Shown here piece after piece: positions 6,556 through 46,514 of a stretch of DNA of 64,000 nt. A program made the position numbers and the translations under genes. Source of the DNA: a virus; the IMG/VR virus record IMGVR_UViG_3300037333_000013, positions 1-64,000 of that record. One strand, 5' to 3'. Numbering within the stretch: the stretch's first letter is position 1; every line of letters starts with the position of its first letter. The notes under the pieces are model-generated. The model saw nothing but the letters and a program-made list of their open reading frames with translations, was not told the DNA's origin and searched no databases.

Positions 6556-6613
6556 TCCGAATTACCGGAGAGTGGTCTATTACGCATACAATGAGTGCCA
6601 CACTTCTCATTGC
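6556..6613 (-). ncRNA. Leader RNA motif I, copy B
   Basis: GCAAUGAG-AAGUGUGGCA-CUCAUUGU-AUGCGUA-AUAGACCAC-UC-UCCG-GUAAUU-CGGA; loop GUGG pairs with CCAC. Confidence 0.7.
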
Positions 6614-15027: not shown

Positions 15028-15453
15028 TTAGTTTCCTTTTAATATTCTGATTGCCTCGCTGTGTGCTAACACATCACAGCGTTCATTTTGTTTATGTCCT
15101 TTATGCCCACGTACCCACTCTGTCGTGATAGTATAGTTTCTTCTTATGTTACTGAATTGCACCCACAAGTCACCATTCTTTACGTCGACAAACTTACGTT
15201 TCTCCCAACCATATATCCACTTATTGATTCCGTTTAGTACATATTGGCTATCTGATATAATATGTACAGTACTTCCTCTTGGAATAATTGAGAGTCCTTG
15301 TATTACAGCTTTTAACTCCATCCTATTGTTTGTTGTATGTCGTTCAGCTCCTTTGAATTCTGTTGTCATTCCATCTGACTCTATGACACCACCGTATCCA
15401 CCTGCACCGGGGTTACCGATGCAAGAACCATCAGTGTACAGTCGGTACATCAT
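15028..15453 (-). CDS. rnhA: Ribonuclease HI
   Basis: YTDGSCIGNPGAGG, TTNNRMEL, SDSQY, KNGDLW, WVRGH, NERCD. Confidence 0.95.
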   Translation of the reverse strand: MMYRLYTDGSCIGNPGAGGYGGVIESDGMTTEFKGAERHTTNNRMELKAVIQGLSIIPRGSTVHIISDSQYVLNGINKWIYGWEKRKFVDVKNGDLWVQFSNIRRNYTITTEWVRGHKGHKQNERCDVLAHSEAIRILKGN

Positions 15454-15709
15454 AGATAATCACAAACTCTAATAGTTTACTATTATACGCACGTTTGAAC
15501 TCTCTTAGTGTAAGCTCCACATCGTTTAATACAATCTCATTACTGTTTACGCAGACTTCCCCGACAGAGCATGTCTTTCCGTATTCGTCTTTAATATAGA
15601 CATTTATATTGTATCTCCCACCGATAACATCTAGCATCTCTCTACAATCAACGACACGTTGTAGGTCTTTTTTCTTCTTTACAAAGAATGTTTTTATTGG
15701 GTATTTCAT
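15431..15709 (-). CDS. Hypothetical protein
   Basis: 92-aa ORF with AAGGA RBS; first gene of an early operon. Confidence 0.65.
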   Translation of the reverse strand: MKYPIKTFFVKKKKDLQRVVDCREMLDVIGGRYNINVYIKDEYGKTCSVGEVCVNSNEIVLNDVELTLREFKRAYNSKLLEFVIIYDVPTVH

Positions 15710-15737
15710 TATCTATCCTTAATGTTTTGTTCTTTTT

Positions 15738-15763
15738 ATTAACCTATCAGGCACAGCAGTTCC
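15738..15763 (-). promoter_or_regulatory. Leader motif II, copy 2
   Basis: GGAACUGCUGU-GCCU-gau-AGGU-UAAU. Confidence 0.5.
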
Positions 15764-15773
15764 TATACGTAAT

Positions 15774-15782
15774 AATAATATA
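15774..15782 (-). promoter_or_regulatory. Early promoter motif
   Basis: TATATTATTattaCGTA. Confidence 0.7.
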
Positions 15783-15814
15783 TAAGTAAATAGTTATCAC
15801 TTTTTGTAAAGAAA

Positions 15815-15955
15815 CAAAAAAAGAAAGACTCCTAGTGGTACACACCACTAGAAGCGAAACAGGACTACCAGTACATATGGTGCATTGAATTACTGTTAAA
15901 AAAGGAGAAAGGTCGTTTGCCTGTTTACTCACATATGTACTGGTGCTATGGTAGC
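15815..15955 (-). ncRNA. Putative stand-alone small RNA with pseudoknot and anti-SD loop
   Basis: Bounded by a promoter motif (15961-15969) and a terminator (15829-15854 plus U-tract). 13-bp stem 15867-15879/15932-15944; 7-bp pseudoknot 15857-15863/15920-15926; no credible ORF. Confidence 0.6.
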
Positions 15956-15960
15956 ATTGA

Positions 15961-15969
15961 AATAATATA
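15961..15969 (-). promoter_or_regulatory. Early promoter motif driving the putative sRNA
   Basis: TATATTATTtcaaTGCTA. Confidence 0.55.
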
Positions 15970-16038
15970 CGGATATAAAAATACCGAACCACTTATCGTA
16001 TATCGATAGACTTATGTGAAATATTAAGGAGTAGAAAA

Positions 16039-16557
16039 ATGCCTATTATCAGAGTACATCATATTGATGAAAGGGACCTCTTAGAGAGCGACATTATTGT
16101 AAACCCAGTCTCACTCATACATACCAGTAAGAACTGCATTAACAAGAAACTAAAGAAGATGTTTAAGAAAGAGTACCGTACGATAGATGATGCTATTAAA
16201 GTGAATGCTATTAAAGGAAAGAAGAAGCGTTCTGAGGCGATGCTGTCTTGCTTACATAGACCTATTACACCAACATCTTTTAATACGATTGTTTCTCAAT
16301 ATGATGGTAAAATAAAATATATCTCAACTATACCATATAAGAAGAGTAAAGAGATGAAATCGTATTTAGTCACACTAGCGAAATTCTTTGAAGAAGCCAA
16401 GACATATAGTGGTGTATCTATTGGTATACCATTATATGGTGATAGCTTCGGTAGATTAAAAAAAGAAGTATTATCTATGGCGGTAAATAGTGGATATCCT
16501 GCATACATTGACGTCTACATAGATGATACGACAAAGGATTTATTATTAGGCATGTAA
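16039..16557 (+). CDS. Macro-domain-like protein (degenerate)
   Basis: DLLESDIIVNPVS near the N-terminus and SIGIPLYG near the C-terminus match the macro fold, but the GGG loop is absent. Confidence 0.5.
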   Translation: MPIIRVHHIDERDLLESDIIVNPVSLIHTSKNCINKKLKKMFKKEYRTIDDAIKVNAIKGKKKRSEAMLSCLHRPITPTSFNTIVSQYDGKIKYISTIPYKKSKEMKSYLVTLAKFFEEAKTYSGVSIGIPLYGDSFGRLKKEVLSMAVNSGYPAYIDVYIDDTTKDLLLGM

Positions 16558-16874
16558 GCGGTAAACAGAGTTGGCGTAGGACAAAGGCATATAAAGAGTG
16601 GAGAAATAGTGTATTAGAAGAGGCAGGACATTGTTGTGATATCTGTGGTGTCAATAATAAAGTGATGCACGCACACCATATCGAAGATGCGAGCAATCAC
16701 CCAGATATAAAGTTTGACGTAAAGAATGGAAAGTGCTTATGTAAAAAGCACCATACGTGGTTACATATACTTTATAAACAGGGGTATAGGAAGAAGACAA
16801 CAAAGAAAGACTATAAGTACTTTAAGTCATTATATAAAGCTGTAGAGCGAGAAACAAAGAAGAAAACAATGTAG
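16545..16874 (+). CDS. HNH endonuclease
   Basis: The frame extends upstream of the tracked ORF: WRRTKAYKEWRNSVLEEAGHCCDICG...HAHHI...NGKCLCKKHH. The only plausible start is ATT 16545 after AAAGGA. Confidence 0.75.
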   Translation: MRHVSGKQSWRRTKAYKEWRNSVLEEAGHCCDICGVNNKVMHAHHIEDASNHPDIKFDVKNGKCLCKKHHTWLHILYKQGYRKKTTKKDYKYFKSLYKAVERETKKKTM

Positions 16875-16975
16875 GTATGTGTATCTGACGTTAAGATACA
16901 ACGTATATTCAATATTTTTCTTAGCGTAAAATGCTAAATGAATGTAGTATAGCTGAATAAAAAAGATACTAATGG

Positions 16976-17002
16976 TGAATGATGACGAGTAGTCATCATT
17001 CA
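16976..17002. terminator. Hairpin between convergent genes
   Basis: TGAATGATGAC-gagta-GTCATCATTCA. Confidence 0.6.
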
Positions 17003-17027
17003 TATTCTTTAGAACCTACATTAACAA

Positions 17028-22286: not shown

Positions 22287-23114
22287 TTAATACGGATTAC
22301 TAAATCCTCTAATATAATCTCCTATGTCACTGTCACGCATCAGTATCGTCTTAATACGTGAACAATTATCATTTGGAGAAATCTTTGCTTGTGATAGTAC
22401 GCTAACCACTTTATGTCTTAAAGATGGTTTTAAGAGTAGTTTAATTAAGCCACTCTTATCACCTAGAAGATAGAGTAACTCAGGACAGAACGGTAAGAAC
22501 GTATAAGTATCTTTCTGTCTGTACTTCTTTGTAAACGCTTTCTTCTCTAGTATCTTTCCTGTATGTGACTCTAGTACCTTCATCCCTTTTGACTTCCTGT
22601 TTAGTAAGTCAAAGTTAATATGTGATAAAAGTAACCCATTGCTACTGAGTGCGAAGTTATGACTGTTATCAAAATCCATCATTGGTTTGAGTTGTTGTGC
22701 ATAACGAAACACTCTGATAGCATCATTCTTTCCATCTTCTACAATAGGATATGCACCAAAGACATACCTATATGACGGAAAGAGTAACTTGAATGTAAGT
22801 CCCTCAGATACCGAGAGTGCATGAATAACTTCTATCTCATTCATAGCCACAGCTATCACATCAGAAGCACCTCTTCCTTTCAATATCTTCTCTTTCATAT
22901 TTTTGTCTACTGCACTCAGTATGTTCCTTATAATCGTATACCAGCTGACTGCAAAGACGCTAAACTGTTTCACATCTACTTTTTCAATAGGTGTTATTTC
23001 AGAATCCTCTTTGTATACTTCAGCAGTTGGTATAAACAATGCACGCAGTGCATTACCTGTACCAATACTGATACCAAACCCTGAACAGGTTCTCTCTTCT
23101 AAAACATCTCTCAC
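22287..23114 (-). CDS. Conserved phiKZ-like hypothetical protein (SbcD-adjacent)
   Basis: R..SGFGISIGT..AL, TIIRN, LESHTG and LPF...L...GD motifs recalled from phiKZ-like core genes. Confidence 0.6.
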   Translation of the reverse strand: MRDVLEERTCSGFGISIGTGNALRALFIPTAEVYKEDSEITPIEKVDVKQFSVFAVSWYTIIRNILSAVDKNMKEKILKGRGASDVIAVAMNEIEVIHALSVSEGLTFKLLFPSYRYVFGAYPIVEDGKNDAIRVFRYAQQLKPMMDFDNSHNFALSSNGLLLSHINFDLLNRKSKGMKVLESHTGKILEKKAFTKKYRQKDTYTFLPFCPELLYLLGDKSGLIKLLLKPSLRHKVVSVLSQAKISPNDNCSRIKTILMRDSDIGDYIRGFSNPY

Positions 23115-44128: not shown

Positions 44129-44137
44129 AATAATATA
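44129..44137 (-). promoter_or_regulatory. Early promoter motif
   Basis: TATATTATT preceded by a T-tract. Confidence 0.65.
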
Positions 44138-44153
44138 CCAGTAAAAAAAAAGG

Positions 44154-44181
44154 ATACACAGTACCACGTGGTACTGTGTAT
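44154..44181 (-). terminator. Intrinsic terminator (perfect 28-bp palindrome)
   Basis: ATACACAGTACCACGTGGTACTGTGTAT followed by T9 on the minus strand. Confidence 0.7.
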
Positions 44182-46514
44182 TAATATCTTAACATCTTGT
44201 TATAAGAACCAATAATATAGTCCTCAACTCTTGGAACAACATATTCCTTGTTCCCACTAATATACTTAAAGTGTTTCGGTATGTTCTTACAGTATAACTG
44301 TACAAACTTCACATCGAACCCCTTAATCTCCCTAAGTCTACCAATCATCTGTATATATGTGGCAATGCTGTCTATGTTCACCGTGTTTAGTGTAAAGATA
44401 AGGTTCTTCACATCAATCGCTTCTGCAAAGACTTGTGGGTGTGTTACTCTAATGTCTGGTTCTAATGCATTCTCGTACTTGTCTTTCCCAGTATACTCTC
44501 TCACATCTAGCGTAGGATACCACTCCTTAACGGCATTTGTGATGACAGTCACCATCTTCAAACTAGATGCAAAGATGAGACATCTGTCATTTCCTCTGTT
44601 CTTTTTTATATAGAACATATCTACGTAGTGTCTTATCATCTCTAAGTAGTCCTCTAATAGTCTACTATTTCTGATAATGATATCTTCAAACATATCGTGG
44701 TTGTAACCATACCCACCATTCACACGTAACTCTCTAGCGGTATCTATACTATACCCAACATTCTCTAACTTAATATAGCTTTTATACGTCAGTAAGTCTA
44801 GACGCATATCTTCTGTAAAGAGTCCGTAGTGGAATCGGTTCAGTGCTTTGTCTTTTGTAATCAATGTGGCTGTTAGACCAATGACTTTCTTTGGGTCTAG
44901 TGCTAAGACTGCACGATAGACGTTGCTAAAGCTCTTGTGTGTTTCATCATTGACGAATGTGTGTATCTTTAGTTTACGCATAAACTCTTTCGGAGTAATG
45001 CAATATTCAGTCTCATCTGCTTTAATGGTATTCAAAAAGTATTCGTCAAAGTTATGGAACGTAGAACCACTTACCAAGATGAATGGAGGTACTTTATCCA
45101 TACCCATCAATTTACAGAATGACTTCTTGCCACTAAGTACAAATATATCATCATCCTCTACATCAAAGTATGTCTTGATGTCTAGTATCCACTTGCTGAT
45201 GTGTCCAGCTAACAGATAAAATAGTGTACGTTTCTTTAACTTTGAGATAACTAAGTTTGCCATATAAGTATTATGTGTTACGATATAATCTGTTGTGACA
45301 TAGAGTTCAGACTCATTGTACACTTCAATGCACGTCGCATTACAGACTCTCGTCGGTTCACACGACACGACTTCGACATATGAATCATCAAACCCTCTGA
45401 GTACATAGACAACATTTTCATATTTAATGTCTACTTGATACCCTGTTGAATAAAGTAGATGTTTTACAATTTCATAGAGTGTTCTATTGGTTGTCACATA
45501 CTTTATCCCACTGTTATTCCTAATTCCTTCTAAATGAAAACCTCTTAGTATTGAATGGCGTTCTTCTACTGTCAATTTTGCAAAGTAAAGACTTGGATTA
45601 TGTCTCATCTTACGAACAATGGATGTCACCTCTTTAAAGTGTGTAAATGATATATTCTGGCCAACCACTTTAAATTCATTGTCACTTACTACCCCATAGA
45701 GTTTAGATAGGTGACTCTCACCAAGCATCATATAGTCATCACCGCATACACCGAACATCAATACTGTTGATGCTATATAGTGTAACTCCGATAGTGCGTG
45801 TGTCTTATAAGGTTTAAACAATGGTATCTCAACACGTATCTTTGTCTTAAGACAAGCCTTTAATACTTTCGTATTAATCGTTTGTTCTAGTCCCCCTATC
45901 TTACATTTCCACAAGTGTTCGAGACCACACTCCGTTTTTCTACCATCTTTCAGTGCTACCTCATACATCTGTTTATTATAGTGTTTTGATACACTTGTAA
46001 TAAACGTCTCTTTACCATTATATGTTGTGACACTCTTTCCTACGTATGAACTCCCTATTGTTTCCCAGCCACGCTCTGTGAGTATTGGCGTATCGTCTGG
46101 TTGCATCTTCCCATATCCAGTACGTGCCATTACAAGTACTCTATCTGGATTCCGTTCTTTCAACATACCATTAATAAAGAACTCCTGTTCATCGCGTGGT
46201 TCGAATGTGTTCTTAAATGGAACATCAATGTCATCATATTCAGTCTCATCTACGATAACCGGAGAGAGTTTCTTTGCACCAAATCTGCTGACAAATTTAT
46301 AAATAAAAAACTGTGCGTCAGACGAGAGAATGGTATACTCGTTCTCTCTAATATTATGAAGATAGTATTTGTCTTTTGGGACGAACGTTGTCTTCCCTTT
46401 CACACGTAACATCTTCATTGTCACGAGTGTCTGACAGAAGTCTTTCATAAAGAAGTCCTCCTCATTGTTCTCAGGCATACACCTGAGAACTTGGTTTCCC
46501 TCTACTAACTTCAT
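44181..46514 (-). CDS. SF2 (DExH) helicase, phiKZ gp75-like, intein-containing
   Basis: PRDEQ Q-motif, Walker A ARTGYGK/T split by an intein, DETH, LTAT, QMIGRLR. Confidence 0.85.
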   Translation of the reverse strand: MKLVEGNQVLRCMPENNEEDFFMKDFCQTLVTMKMLRVKGKTTFVPKDKYYLHNIRENEYTILSSDAQFFIYKFVSRFGAKKLSPVIVDETEYDDIDVPFKNTFEPRDEQEFFINGMLKERNPDRVLVMARTGYGKMQPDDTPILTERGWETIGSSYVGKSVTTYNGKETFITSVSKHYNKQMYEVALKDGRKTECGLEHLWKCKIGGLEQTINTKVLKACLKTKIRVEIPLFKPYKTHALSELHYIASTVLMFGVCGDDYMMLGESHLSKLYGVVSDNEFKVVGQNISFTHFKEVTSIVRKMRHNPSLYFAKLTVEERHSILRGFHLEGIRNNSGIKYVTTNRTLYEIVKHLLYSTGYQVDIKYENVVYVLRGFDDSYVEVVSCEPTRVCNATCIEVYNESELYVTTDYIVTHNTYMANLVISKLKKRTLFYLLAGHISKWILDIKTYFDVEDDDIFVLSGKKSFCKLMGMDKVPPFILVSGSTFHNFDEYFLNTIKADETEYCITPKEFMRKLKIHTFVNDETHKSFSNVYRAVLALDPKKVIGLTATLITKDKALNRFHYGLFTEDMRLDLLTYKSYIKLENVGYSIDTARELRVNGGYGYNHDMFEDIIIRNSRLLEDYLEMIRHYVDMFYIKKNRGNDRCLIFASSLKMVTVITNAVKEWYPTLDVREYTGKDKYENALEPDIRVTHPQVFAEAIDVKNLIFTLNTVNIDSIATYIQMIGRLREIKGFDVKFVQLYCKNIPKHFKYISGNKEYVVPRVEDYIIGSYNKMLRY
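45270..46106 (-). mobile_element. Class 3 intein (279 aa) with degenerate LAGLIDADG-type endonuclease region
   Basis: Begins MQPDDTPILTERGW; block B CGLEHLW; block F ATCIEV; ends VTHN/T; inserted between the Walker A K and T. Confidence 0.85.

What the first reader, a model, noticed from the sequence alone, without database searches (positions are those of the whole stretch)
15815..15969. Stand-alone early small RNA related to motif I and displaying an anti-Shine-Dalgarno loop
Seen: an early promoter motif (15961-15969) points into ~140 nt with no credible ORF, ending in a terminator hairpin and U-tract (15816-15854). The RNA has a perfect 13-bp stem (ACCAGUACAUAUG/CAUAUGUACUGGU). Its loop starts GAGU-AAACAGG-CA and can form a 7-bp pseudoknot with UAGU-CCUGUUU just 3' of the stem. 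These are the same AGU..CAGGCA and UAGUCCUG words as motif I, and GUAAUU is also present but inside the loop. The loop also carries CCUUUCUCCUUUUUU, the complement of the AAAGGAG(A) ribosome-binding sites used in this window. Inference: a trans-acting relative of motif I, acting either as a broad RBS-pairing sRNA/16S 3'-end mimic or as a decoy for whatever binds the leaders. Together they would form a cis-leader plus trans-sRNA regulatory system.
Basis: partly seen in the sequence, partly recalled or inferred. Interest (0 to 1): 0.85.

Follow-up and report, generated by a model that had tools for sequence, protein, structure and literature searches.

The report
Conserved early phage small RNA gene
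A phiKZ-like phage from hydrothermal vents carries a small non-coding RNA gene whose folded shape is kept in two distant relatives. Its big exposed loop is the mirror image of the phage's own gene-start signals, so it most likely acts as an antisense regulator.

Summary
On the minus strand, 15816-15969 carries a phiKZ-style early promoter, a 13-bp stem (P1) closing a 52-nt loop, a possible 7-bp loop-tail pseudoknot and an intrinsic terminator, with no credible ORF.

Two distant relatives from metagenomes have the same unit at the same place; their flanking proteins are only 34-56% identical. P1 has a different sequence in each, and 18 of 29 pairs change on both sides while 98.8% of cells stay paired. 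G.U pairs assign the structure to the minus strand. It is a real, new RNA family with no Rfam match and one copy per contig.

The link to "motif I" is weak. A motif I covariance model finds motif I copies in all three phages but never this RNA.

The loop is more than an anti-Shine-Dalgarno tract. Its invariant AGUAAUUCAA is the exact complement of a box (TTGAAUUACU) at the 5' end of several early leaders and some non-early gene starts. Read on the opposite strand, the loop is a full "box, A-tract/SD, start codon" module upstream of a macrodomain gene.

Best reading: an early antisense RNA acting in cis, in trans, or both. Function is inferred, not shown. Promoter-proximal terminated small RNAs are already known in phiKZ.

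The parts
15961..15985 (-). Early (virion RNA polymerase type) promoter: TATATTATT at 15961-15969 with a T-rich stretch upstream. The transcription start is inferred at about 15955 +/- 3.
   Evidence: All 14 of 14 window copies are on the minus strand. Genome-wide copies sit upstream of leaders. The phiKZ early promoter is an extended -10 box plus a T-rich upstream motif (PMC8244752). The same motif is present in L001 and L056.
15945..15955 (-). P0: a small 5' hairpin (4 bp).
   Evidence: Predicted in the folds. Three of its 4 pairs change on both sides across the three phages.
15932..15944 (-). P1 5' arm (13 nt).
   Evidence: Perfect 13-bp stem. Ten of 13 pairs change on both sides in L001 and L056, and 100% of cells are paired.
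15867..15879 (-). P1 3' arm (13 nt).
   Evidence: Same as for the 5' arm.
15880..15931 (-). 52-nt apical loop, largely unpaired.
   Evidence: Folds. The loop is 48-50 nt in the relatives.
15920..15926 (-). Candidate pseudoknot 5' strand, AAACAGG, in the loop.
   Evidence: Pairs with 15857-15863. The relatives have AAACAUG/CGUGUUU and AAACCGG/CCGGUUU, so A-U becomes C-G and G-C becomes U.G. Shuffle p is 0.05-0.13 per sequence.
15857..15863 (-). Candidate pseudoknot 3' strand, CCUGUUU, 3 nt after P1.
   Evidence: Same as for the 5' strand.
15898..15912 (-). CU-rich anti-Shine-Dalgarno tract.
   Evidence: Read directly. Conserved as UUUCCUCCUUU in L001 and CUUCCUCCUUUUUU in L056.
15884..15894 (-). 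Invariant loop word AGUAAUUCAAU, the exact reverse complement of the leader box ATTGAATTACT.
   Evidence: Invariant in the window and L001; 10 of 11 positions in L056. The box lies at a fixed spacing after six early promoters.
15828..15855 (-). Intrinsic terminator hairpin (12 bp, with G.U pairs).
   Evidence: Terminator scan. Five pairs change on both sides, and the G.U pairs would be A/C mismatches on the plus strand.
15816..15827 (-). U-tract of the terminator.
   Evidence: Read directly. One strain has a 1-nt shorter tract.
15881..15919 (+). Opposite-strand image of the loop: box (TGAATTACT), A-tract/SD (AAGGAG) and a TTG start. It heads a non-conserved mini-ORF (15917-16009, 30 aa).
   Evidence: The same module is found in L001 (ATG, 4 codons) and L056 (GTG, 14 codons). 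Box-to-start distances are 36, 29 and 31 nt, like real non-early gene starts. PWM scores are 6.1, 5.1 and 10.5. A strain variant, 15959 G>T, makes a stop at codon 15.
15774..15782 (-). Context: a second early promoter just after the terminator. It drives the 92-aa gene (15431-15709) through a conserved hairpin leader.
   Evidence: The same layout is seen in L001 and L056.
16012..16041 (+). Context: the proximal start module (TTATGTGAAATATT, SD, ATG) of the divergent 172-aa macrodomain-fold gene.
   Evidence: PWM 8.8. L001 and L056 equivalents score 9.7 and 8.2. The motif class is described.

Best explanation
The unit is a real, independently transcribed early non-coding RNA of about 140 nt, on the minus strand from about 15955 to 15816.

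Inferred steps:
- The virion RNA polymerase starts a few nucleotides after TATATTATT.
- The transcript forms a small 5' hairpin, then an 11-13 bp stem (P1) closing a loop of about 50 nt, probably a 7-bp loop-to-tail pseudoknot, and an intrinsic terminator that releases it.

Shown: the loop is the exact antisense image of a canonical gene-start module of this phage, made of the box TTGAAUUACU, an A-tract/Shine-Dalgarno sequence and a start codon.

Inferred function: the RNA works by base pairing through this loop.
- In cis, it would pair with the 5' end of any rightward transcript that starts at the opposite-strand module and runs toward the macrodomain gene.
- In trans, it would pair with early leaders and other gene starts that carry the same box plus SD. 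One example is the 275-aa phrog_3229 gene, whose ortholog in L001 matches its own RNA equally well.
- Pairing would cover the SD and start codon, blocking ribosome loading and perhaps creating a double-strand RNase substrate. The result would be to damp or time expression.
For: - Transcription unit: strand-specific early promoter, terminator, and a phiKZ-type promoter architecture (PMC8244752). The phage encodes phiKZ-type RNA polymerase beta subunits.
- Conservation: the same unit lies at the syntenic place in L001 and L056, whose flanking proteins are 34-56% identical. A model built from the window sequence alone hits them at 51 and 73 bits.
- Covariation: 98.8% of cells are paired, 18 of 29 pairs change on both sides, and 0 of 500 shuffles reach this; slid controls give 25-46% paired. 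G.U pairs fit only the minus strand.
- All three RNAs fold alike, with z = -3.4, -3.2 and -2.4.
- Loop: AGUAAUUCAA is invariant and is the reverse complement of the box that follows six early promoters at a fixed spacing. The CU tract is conserved.
- Duplex predictions with box-bearing leaders reach -24 to -33 kcal/mol, with z down to -4.7.
- The 275-aa gene ranks 3rd of 172 translation start regions (-24.1, median -13.3). Its L001 ortholog, 55% identical, gives -26.5 with the L001 RNA.
- Close strains keep the element almost unchanged.
- Precedent: northern-confirmed short promoter-proximal terminated RNAs exist in phiKZ (PMC10914365).
Against: - There is no expression data. The one metatranscriptome contig stops at 15664 and says nothing about the RNA.
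- Only three independent sequences exist, so the pseudoknot and the loop constraints are weakly tested.
- The alignment used for pair counts was fitted to the model.
- The loop's conservation could come from a DNA-level function on the plus strand (promoter or translation start) rather than from RNA pairing.
- The plus-strand module scores below all training sites in two of the three phages, so a cis target transcript is not assured.
- Duplex energies are partly circular, because any anti-SD plus anti-box sequence will score well against box-and-SD leaders.
- No covariation between the loop and its proposed targets was seen.
Confidence: 0.45

Rival explanations
1. The functional element is on the plus strand. 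The conserved loop sequence would be a non-virion-polymerase promoter plus SD and start, serving a long-leader transcript of the macrodomain gene or a regulatory mini-ORF. The minus-strand promoter and terminator would then act mainly by convergent-promoter interference, or as an insulator, and the RNA product itself would matter little.
For: - The plus-strand box, A-tract/SD and start codon are present in all three phages with the geometry of real gene starts: 29-36 nt from motif to start.
- Similar modules head real genes, for example near genome positions 164397 and 96592.
- The phiKZ middle promoter motif is described as a TACT motif with an adjacent A-repeat (PMC8244752).
- L056 scores 10.5 on the motif PWM.
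Against: - P1, P0 and the terminator covary and contain G.U pairs that fit only the minus-strand RNA. A by-product would not keep an 11-13 bp stem with fully different sequences.
- The mini-ORF is 30, 14 or 4 codons long, in different frames, and a natural strain variant truncates it.
- The macrodomain gene has its own proximal module, with PWM 8.2-9.7.
- Paralog loci manage with intergenic regions of only 86-130 nt.
- The window and L001 distal modules score below every training site.
Confidence: 0.2
2. One reading: a broad Shine-Dalgarno-pairing RNA or 16S 3'-end mimic, or a decoy for a factor that binds the motif I leaders. Together with motif I it would form a leader-plus-small-RNA system.
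For: - A CU-rich tract identical to the core of the 16S 3' end (CCUCCUUU in L001 and L056) is exposed in the loop and conserved.
- The window copy shares CAGGCA and UAGUCCUGU with motif I copies.
- Both elements have a possible loop-to-tail pairing flanked by GCA and AGUC.
Against: - The motif I model does not hit the RNA in any of the three phages.
- The relatives' RNAs lack the motif I words, while their own motif I copies keep them.
- The topologies differ: an 11-nt loop with a long linker, against a 50-nt loop with a 3-nt linker.
- A generic anti-SD role does not explain the invariant AGUAAUUCAA.
- A global sponge would also hit the phage's own mRNAs.
Confidence: 0.12
3. The RNA is a protein sponge. 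It would display the box sequence single-stranded and so titrate a phage protein that recognises that motif. Candidates are the non-virion RNA polymerase (a 6S-like timing device) or a leader-binding protein.
For: - Jumbo-phage non-virion polymerases read short single-stranded motifs at or near the start site: non-template TATG in phiKZ, a template-strand motif in AR9 (PMC12809450).
- The loop carries the template-strand image of the box, held open by P1 and perhaps by a pseudoknot.
- The RNA comes from an early promoter, so it would be made before the non-virion polymerase acts.
Against: - Purely inferential.
- Whether the box is a polymerase recognition element in this phage is unproven.
- The RNA lacks the long-duplex-with-bubble shape of 6S RNA.
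- No binding data exist.
Confidence: 0.1
4. The region is a chance or decaying feature, for example a relic leader, or it encodes a small protein.
For: An 81-aa ORF overlaps the region. Short AUG-initiated frames exist in L001 and L056.
Against: - The 81-aa ORF starts upstream of the promoter, crosses the terminator and has no family hit.
- The internal frames are 3, 19 and 43 codons and are unrelated to each other.
- Covariation and synteny across three diverged phages argue against decay.
Confidence: 0.04

Closest known systems
phiKZ promoter-proximal terminated small RNAs (5'UTR-derived or intergenic ncRNA candidates, e.g. the 141-nt TU237 RNA upstream of PHIKZ302; Putzeys et al. 2024, PMC10914365)
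   Same: A phage with its own multisubunit RNA polymerases. A phage promoter is followed within about 150 nt by an intrinsic terminator, giving a short abundant RNA without an ORF, upstream of a gene.
   Different: No sequence or Rfam relation was found. Here a second promoter follows the terminator, so the unit stands alone. Structure is supported by covariation in three phages, and the loop is antisense to the phage's own start modules. The phiKZ RNAs have no assigned structure or function. Expression of the RNA described here is untested.
Phage antisense RNAs that cover a ribosome-binding site (P22 sar against ant; P1/P7 c4 against icd-ant; lambda OOP). Recalled from general knowledge.
   Same: A small terminator-ended RNA transcribed opposite to, or complementary to, a translation start region. 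It is expected to block ribosome binding or trigger cleavage.
   Different: Those are from temperate phages and use host polymerase promoters, and their targets are known. Here the cis target transcript is hypothetical, the complementary module recurs at many genes, and the antisense part sits in a 50-nt loop closed by a covarying stem.
C/U-rich-loop small RNAs that pair with SD regions (RsaE/RoxS and RNAIII in Firmicutes, RepG in Helicobacter). Recalled from general knowledge.
   Same: An unpaired pyrimidine-rich motif presented in a loop and complementary to purine-rich ribosome-binding sites.
   Different: No homology: Rfam gives no match. The RNA is phage-encoded, and the pyrimidine tract is only part of a longer antisense image that also includes the box.
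Motif I leaders of the same phage (window 5266-5328, 6556-6613, 7330-7393, 44061-44118, 60280-60338)
   Same: An early promoter upstream, a hairpin whose loop can pair with a downstream tail, and short flanking words (GCA, AGUC). GUAAU is present.
   Different: Motif I has a loop of about 11 nt, a 5-10 nt linker and a third hairpin with a GGUAAUG loop, and it sits in a 5' UTR. The small RNA has a loop of about 50 nt, a 3-nt linker and a terminator in place of the third hairpin, with no gene attached. The motif I model does not hit it.

Membership tests
Motif I leader family of this phage | Match to a covariance model of motif I (P1, conserved loop, tail, P3) | tested here: not met
   Model R3 finds 60280, 5266, 7330 and 117033 in the genome, and L001:16837-16896 and L056:1479-1518. 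It gives no hit at the small RNA in L057, L001 or L056 at E <= 10 with filters off.
Motif I leader family of this phage | Loop word AGUCNGG(C/U)(A/G) and tail word UA(G/A)NCCNG kept across phages | tested here: not met
   The window RNA has CAGGCA and UAGUCCUG. The L001 RNA has CAUGCA and UAAGUCGUG, and the L056 RNA has CCGGCA and UAAGUCCGG. The motif I copies of those same phages keep AGUCUGG/AUCCAG and AGUCAGG/GACCUG.
Motif I leader family of this phage | Third hairpin with a GGUAAUG loop, and a location in a 5' UTR just upstream of an SD | tested here: not met
   A terminator follows the tail instead, and the next gene has its own promoter.
Promoter-proximal terminated phage ncRNAs (phiKZ type) | A phage promoter followed within 250 nt by an intrinsic terminator, with no SD-preceded ORF of 10 aa or more | tested here: met
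   The promoter at 15961-15969 and terminator at 15816-15855 give about 140 nt. The internal frames have 3 and 6 codons and no SD.
Promoter-proximal terminated phage ncRNAs (phiKZ type) | A discrete short transcript detected by northern blot or cappable-seq | not testable with these tools
   Only assembled contigs of one metatranscriptome were available, and they do not cover the region.
cis-encoded antisense RNA | An overlapping transcript from the opposite strand | tested here: inconclusive
   A plus-strand start-module look-alike is present in all three phages at canonical spacing. Its PWM scores are 6.1, 5.1 and 10.5, against 7.0-13.8 for the training sites. There is no transcript evidence.
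Anti-SD (C/U-rich loop) regulatory sRNAs | An unpaired C/U-rich motif complementary to SD sequences, conserved among homologs | tested here: met
   15898-15912 is unpaired in the MFE and centroid folds. It is conserved in L001 and L056.
Any Rfam family | A score at or above the family's gathering threshold | tested here: not met
   There are no matches in the window at gathering scores. The best sub-threshold hit is PyrG_leader, 20.8 bits against a threshold of 65, with E 1.2.
6S RNA-like polymerase decoys | A long irregular duplex with a central open-promoter-like bubble | tested here: not met
   The fold is a 13-bp stem with a 52-nt hairpin loop plus a terminator, and there is no Rfam 6S hit. 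This lowers membership, not the possibility of a decoy-like action.

The most novel reading that the evidence does not exclude
The RNA could be a timing decoy for the phage's own non-virion RNA polymerase. It is made early by the injected virion polymerase. Held open by P1 and the pseudoknot, it displays the single-stranded template-strand image of the start-site box together with the initially transcribed region. This could bind newly made non-virion polymerase, or its promoter-reading subunit, and delay the early-to-middle switch. It would be a 6S-RNA-like principle in a virus that does not use the host polymerase.
Probability: 0.07. Interest if true: 0.9.

Novelty: new variant of a known kind. 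Interest (0 to 1): 0.55.

Why it matters
- Small RNAs of strictly lytic phages, and of jumbo phages in particular, are barely understood. phiKZ makes many short promoter-proximal RNAs whose function is unknown.
- This element is, to my knowledge, a rare case where such an RNA has comparative support: three diverged phages with full stem covariation.
- It also has a readable functional clue. Its loop mirrors the phage's own start-site box, SD and start codon.
- If the antisense model or the decoy model holds, it would show that phiKZ-like phages use RNA, not only polymerase switching, to time or damp gene expression.
- It gives a concrete, testable RNA-target pair: the small RNA with the 275-aa-gene leader, or with the leader of the macrodomain locus.

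Tried and rejected
- Phage collection: DNA searches (distant mode, 1 kb and 7 kb) and a protein search found nothing.
- IMG/VR protein scans with the 172-aa, 92-aa and 396-aa proteins found nothing.
- IMG/VR DNA pattern scans gave only chance hits. "Promoter + loop word" returned 52 loci, none with the fold. "CU tract + loop word" returned 80 loci, with a best model score of 25 bits on a fragment.
- Whole-record searches of the relatives were not possible because the records are not held. L003 stops inside the RNase H gene and does not reach the intergenic region.
- More distant homologs of the 172-aa protein (P0007-P0009) lie in other contexts with short intergenic regions and no such RNA.
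- The metatranscriptome run X4 has a contig that ends at 15664, with no cover over the element. This says nothing about presence or absence of the RNA.
- MAFFT could not align the pseudoknot strands consistently, so the pseudoknot was judged by hand and by shuffling only.
- The idea that the 30-aa plus-strand ORF is a gene was rejected. It is 4 and 14 codons long in the relatives, and a strain variant truncates it.
- The idea that the plus strand carries an early promoter upstream of the box was rejected. No TATATTATT-like sequence is there in any of the three phages.
- A search of earlier scan notes by sequence found nothing.

Full report
**Setting.** The window is the first 64 kb of a 164,667-bp single-contig virus record (36% G+C, CheckV 62% complete) from a hydrothermal-vent metagenome. 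It encodes phiKZ-type RNA polymerase beta subunits, a phiKZ-type head protein and helicases. Nothing similar is in the phage collection. The finding lies in a 329-nt divergent intergenic region, 15710-16038. On one side is a 92-aa gene on the minus strand (15431-15709). On the other is a 172-aa gene on the plus strand (16039-16557).

**Observation.**
- TATATTATT lies at 15961-15969 on the minus strand.
- A perfect 13-bp stem, P1, pairs 15932-15944 with 15867-15879 and encloses a 52-nt loop.
- AAACAGG in the loop can pair with CCUGUUU, which starts 3 nt after the stem.
- A CU-rich tract lies at 15898-15912.
- A 12-bp terminator hairpin lies at 15828-15855, followed by a U-tract.

TATATTATT occurs 14 times in the window, always on the minus strand, against 2.7 expected. 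Genome-wide it sits behind a T-rich stretch and ahead of leaders. This matches the phiKZ early promoter, described as an extended -10 box with a T-rich upstream motif (PMC8244752). The RNA folds into P1 plus the terminator with z = -3.4. The overlapping 81-aa ORF begins upstream of the promoter, crosses the terminator and has no family match. A second early promoter (15774-15782) follows the terminator and serves the 92-aa gene. The unit therefore stands alone.

**Relatives.** A neighbouring 396-aa protein has two metagenomic homologs. One gave locus L001. A profile search with the 172-aa protein gave a third, independent contig, L056. Between the three phages the flanking proteins are 34%, 45% and 56% identical. 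The same unit still lies at the same place in both relatives: early promoter, small 5' hairpin, long stem, loop of about 50 nt, tail, terminator, second promoter.

A covariance model built from the window sequence alone finds L056 at 73 bits and L001 at 51 bits, and nothing else convincing. The own genome has one copy. On the model-fitted alignment:
- 98.8% of cells are standard pairs.
- 18 of 29 pairs change on both sides, 10 of them among the 13 pairs of P1.
- No shuffle out of 500 reaches these values.
- Slid controls give 25-46% pairing.

Several pairs are G.U, which would be A/C on the other strand, so the structure belongs to the minus-strand RNA. The three RNAs fold alike on their own. 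Close strains in other runs (95-99% identical) change the element at only two bases and one U-tract length. No Rfam family matches. Two pattern scans of IMG/VR gave only chance hits.

**Pseudoknot.** The pairing is AAACAGG/CCUGUUU in the window, AAACAUG/CGUGUUU in L001 and AAACCGG/CCGGUUU in L056. Two of the seven pairs change on both sides and stay paired. Seven-base complementarity between such A-rich and U-rich pieces arises in 5-13% of shuffles. I rate the pseudoknot as plausible, not established.

**Relation to motif I.** Earlier notes gave five motif I leaders, which I inspected. A single-sequence motif I model recovers three of the other four and a sixth copy at genome 117033-117095. 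It also finds one copy each in L001 and L056. It gives no hit on the small RNA in any phage, even without filters. The relatives' motif I copies keep the AGUC(U/A)GG and CC(A/U)G words, while their small RNAs do not. The exact word match seen in this window is therefore not a conserved property. The small RNA is a separate family that at most shares a loop-tail pairing idea.

**What the loop is.** About half of the early leaders begin, at a fixed 8-nt spacing after TATATTATT, with the box ATTGAATT(A/G)CT. All six matches with at most one mismatch that lie behind early promoters are on the minus strand. L001 and L056 leaders carry the box too. The only other intergenic copy is on the plus strand at 15884-15894. 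That makes it the reverse complement of the invariant loop word AGUAAUUCAAU.

Read on the plus strand, the loop of all three phages is "box, A-tract/SD, start codon" (TTG, ATG, GTG). The box-to-start distances are 36, 29 and 31 nt.

Many non-early genes, mostly the plus-strand islands, carry a T-rich TGA(A/C)(A/T)T motif 25-35 nt before their start. A few real genes have near-identical box, A-tract and SD modules. phiKZ middle promoters are described as a TACT motif with an adjacent A-repeat. phiKZ-type non-virion polymerases read short single-stranded motifs at the start site. The box is thus probably a start-site or promoter element of the non-virion polymerase. This is an inference. The loop is the antisense image of a complete gene-start module.

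The mini-ORF behind the plus-strand module is 30, 4 and 14 codons long in different frames. The natural variant 15959 G>T truncates it to 14 codons. It is not a protein gene.

The 172-aa gene has its own proximal module, with PWM 8.8 (9.7 and 8.2 in the relatives). The distal module scores 6.1, 5.1 and 10.5, against 7.0-13.8 for the training sites.

**Targets.** Predicted duplexes between the loop and box-bearing early leaders reach -24 to -33 kcal/mol, with z down to -4.7 against shuffled loops. Among 172 predicted start regions, the 275-aa gene 22287-23114 (phrog_3229) ranks third, pairing almost continuously from its 5' end through its SD. Its L001 ortholog, 55% identical, pairs with the L001 RNA at -26.5, the best of the three L001 leaders tested. 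These numbers are suggestive only, because any anti-box plus anti-SD sequence scores well against such leaders.

**Verdict.** I am about 85% confident that this is a real, conserved, structured early non-coding RNA.
- Its most likely mode of action is antisense pairing through the loop, in cis, in trans or both (about 45%).
- The main rival is that the loop is conserved for a plus-strand promoter or translation-start function, and the unit acts by convergent transcription (about 20%).
- A protein or polymerase sponge stands at about 10%.

The closest known things are the short promoter-proximal terminated RNAs of phiKZ, two of which were confirmed by northern blot and have no known function (PMC10914365). 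The kind is therefore known. The family, its covariation support and the mirror-image loop are new.

**Side result.** The divergent 172-aa protein has no Pfam or PHROG hit. It folds confidently (pLDDT 85) into a macrodomain closest to DarG and TARG1.

Noticed in passing
window 16039-16557 (+): The 172-aa protein has no Pfam or PHROG hit but is predicted (pLDDT 85, pTM 0.81) to have a macrodomain fold closest to DarG and TARG1 (Foldseek E 6e-6, TM about 0.6). It may be an ADP-ribose-removing counter-defence protein. Distant homologs sit next to a dUTPase gene in other vent phage contigs (L058, L061).
   Followed up: partly
window 16662-16874 (+): A 70-aa ORF with an HNH-like motif (HH...N...CxxHH). 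It looks like a short or truncated HNH endonuclease just after the macrodomain gene, with a plus-strand terminator-like hairpin at 16975-17003.
   Followed up: no
genome-wide, e.g. window 24274, 17653, 30801(-), 43415(-), 16012: A T-rich TGA(A/C)(A/T)T motif starts 25-35 nt upstream of the start codon of many genes that lack the early promoter, mostly the plus-strand islands. It is a candidate start-site motif of the non-virion polymerase. Of 50 PWM hits, 20 lie 15-60 nt before a start, although most of these were training sites.
   Followed up: partly
window 6648, 19519, 60350; genome 75185, 117106, 159638 (all minus): Several early promoters are followed at a fixed 8-nt spacing by the box ATTGAATT(A/G)CT. 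These may be dual early plus non-virion-polymerase promoters, as reported for PHIKZ054.
   Followed up: partly
genome 117033-117095 (-); L001:16837-16896 (+); L056:1479-1518 (-): Further motif I copies were found with a single-sequence covariance model: one outside the window and one in each relative. Motif I is therefore conserved across the three phages. The window copy at 6556-6613 was not recovered by this model.
   Followed up: partly
window 15710-15773 (-); L001:9363-9424; L056:1-56 (-): The leader of the 92-aa gene keeps CUGUG, then a variable short hairpin, then YUAAY in all three phages. The hairpin sequence differs in each phage but still pairs.
   Followed up: no
window 1991, 12763, 16001, 18641, 20288, 31620, 35486, 37913, 40920, 48500, 53009: The palindrome TATCGATA occurs 11 times, against 1.6 expected (0 of 100 shuffles reach this). 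Most copies are inside genes, and one lies in this intergenic region at 16001-16008. Its meaning is unknown; it could be a binding or modification site.
   Followed up: no
window 44137-44219 (-): A second TATATTATT lies 82 nt upstream of the promoter of the 44061 motif I leader. The two are separated by a strong hairpin and a U-tract. This could be another tiny ORF-less promoter-terminator unit, or a chance promoter word at the end of a gene.
   Followed up: no
window 15028-15453 (-): An RNase H gene (Pfam RNase_H, E 2e-39) sits between the 92-aa and 396-aa genes. In L001 a 116-aa gene occupies that place, and the relatives' 396-aa homologs carry an extra N-terminal extension of about 60-70 aa.
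   Followed up: no
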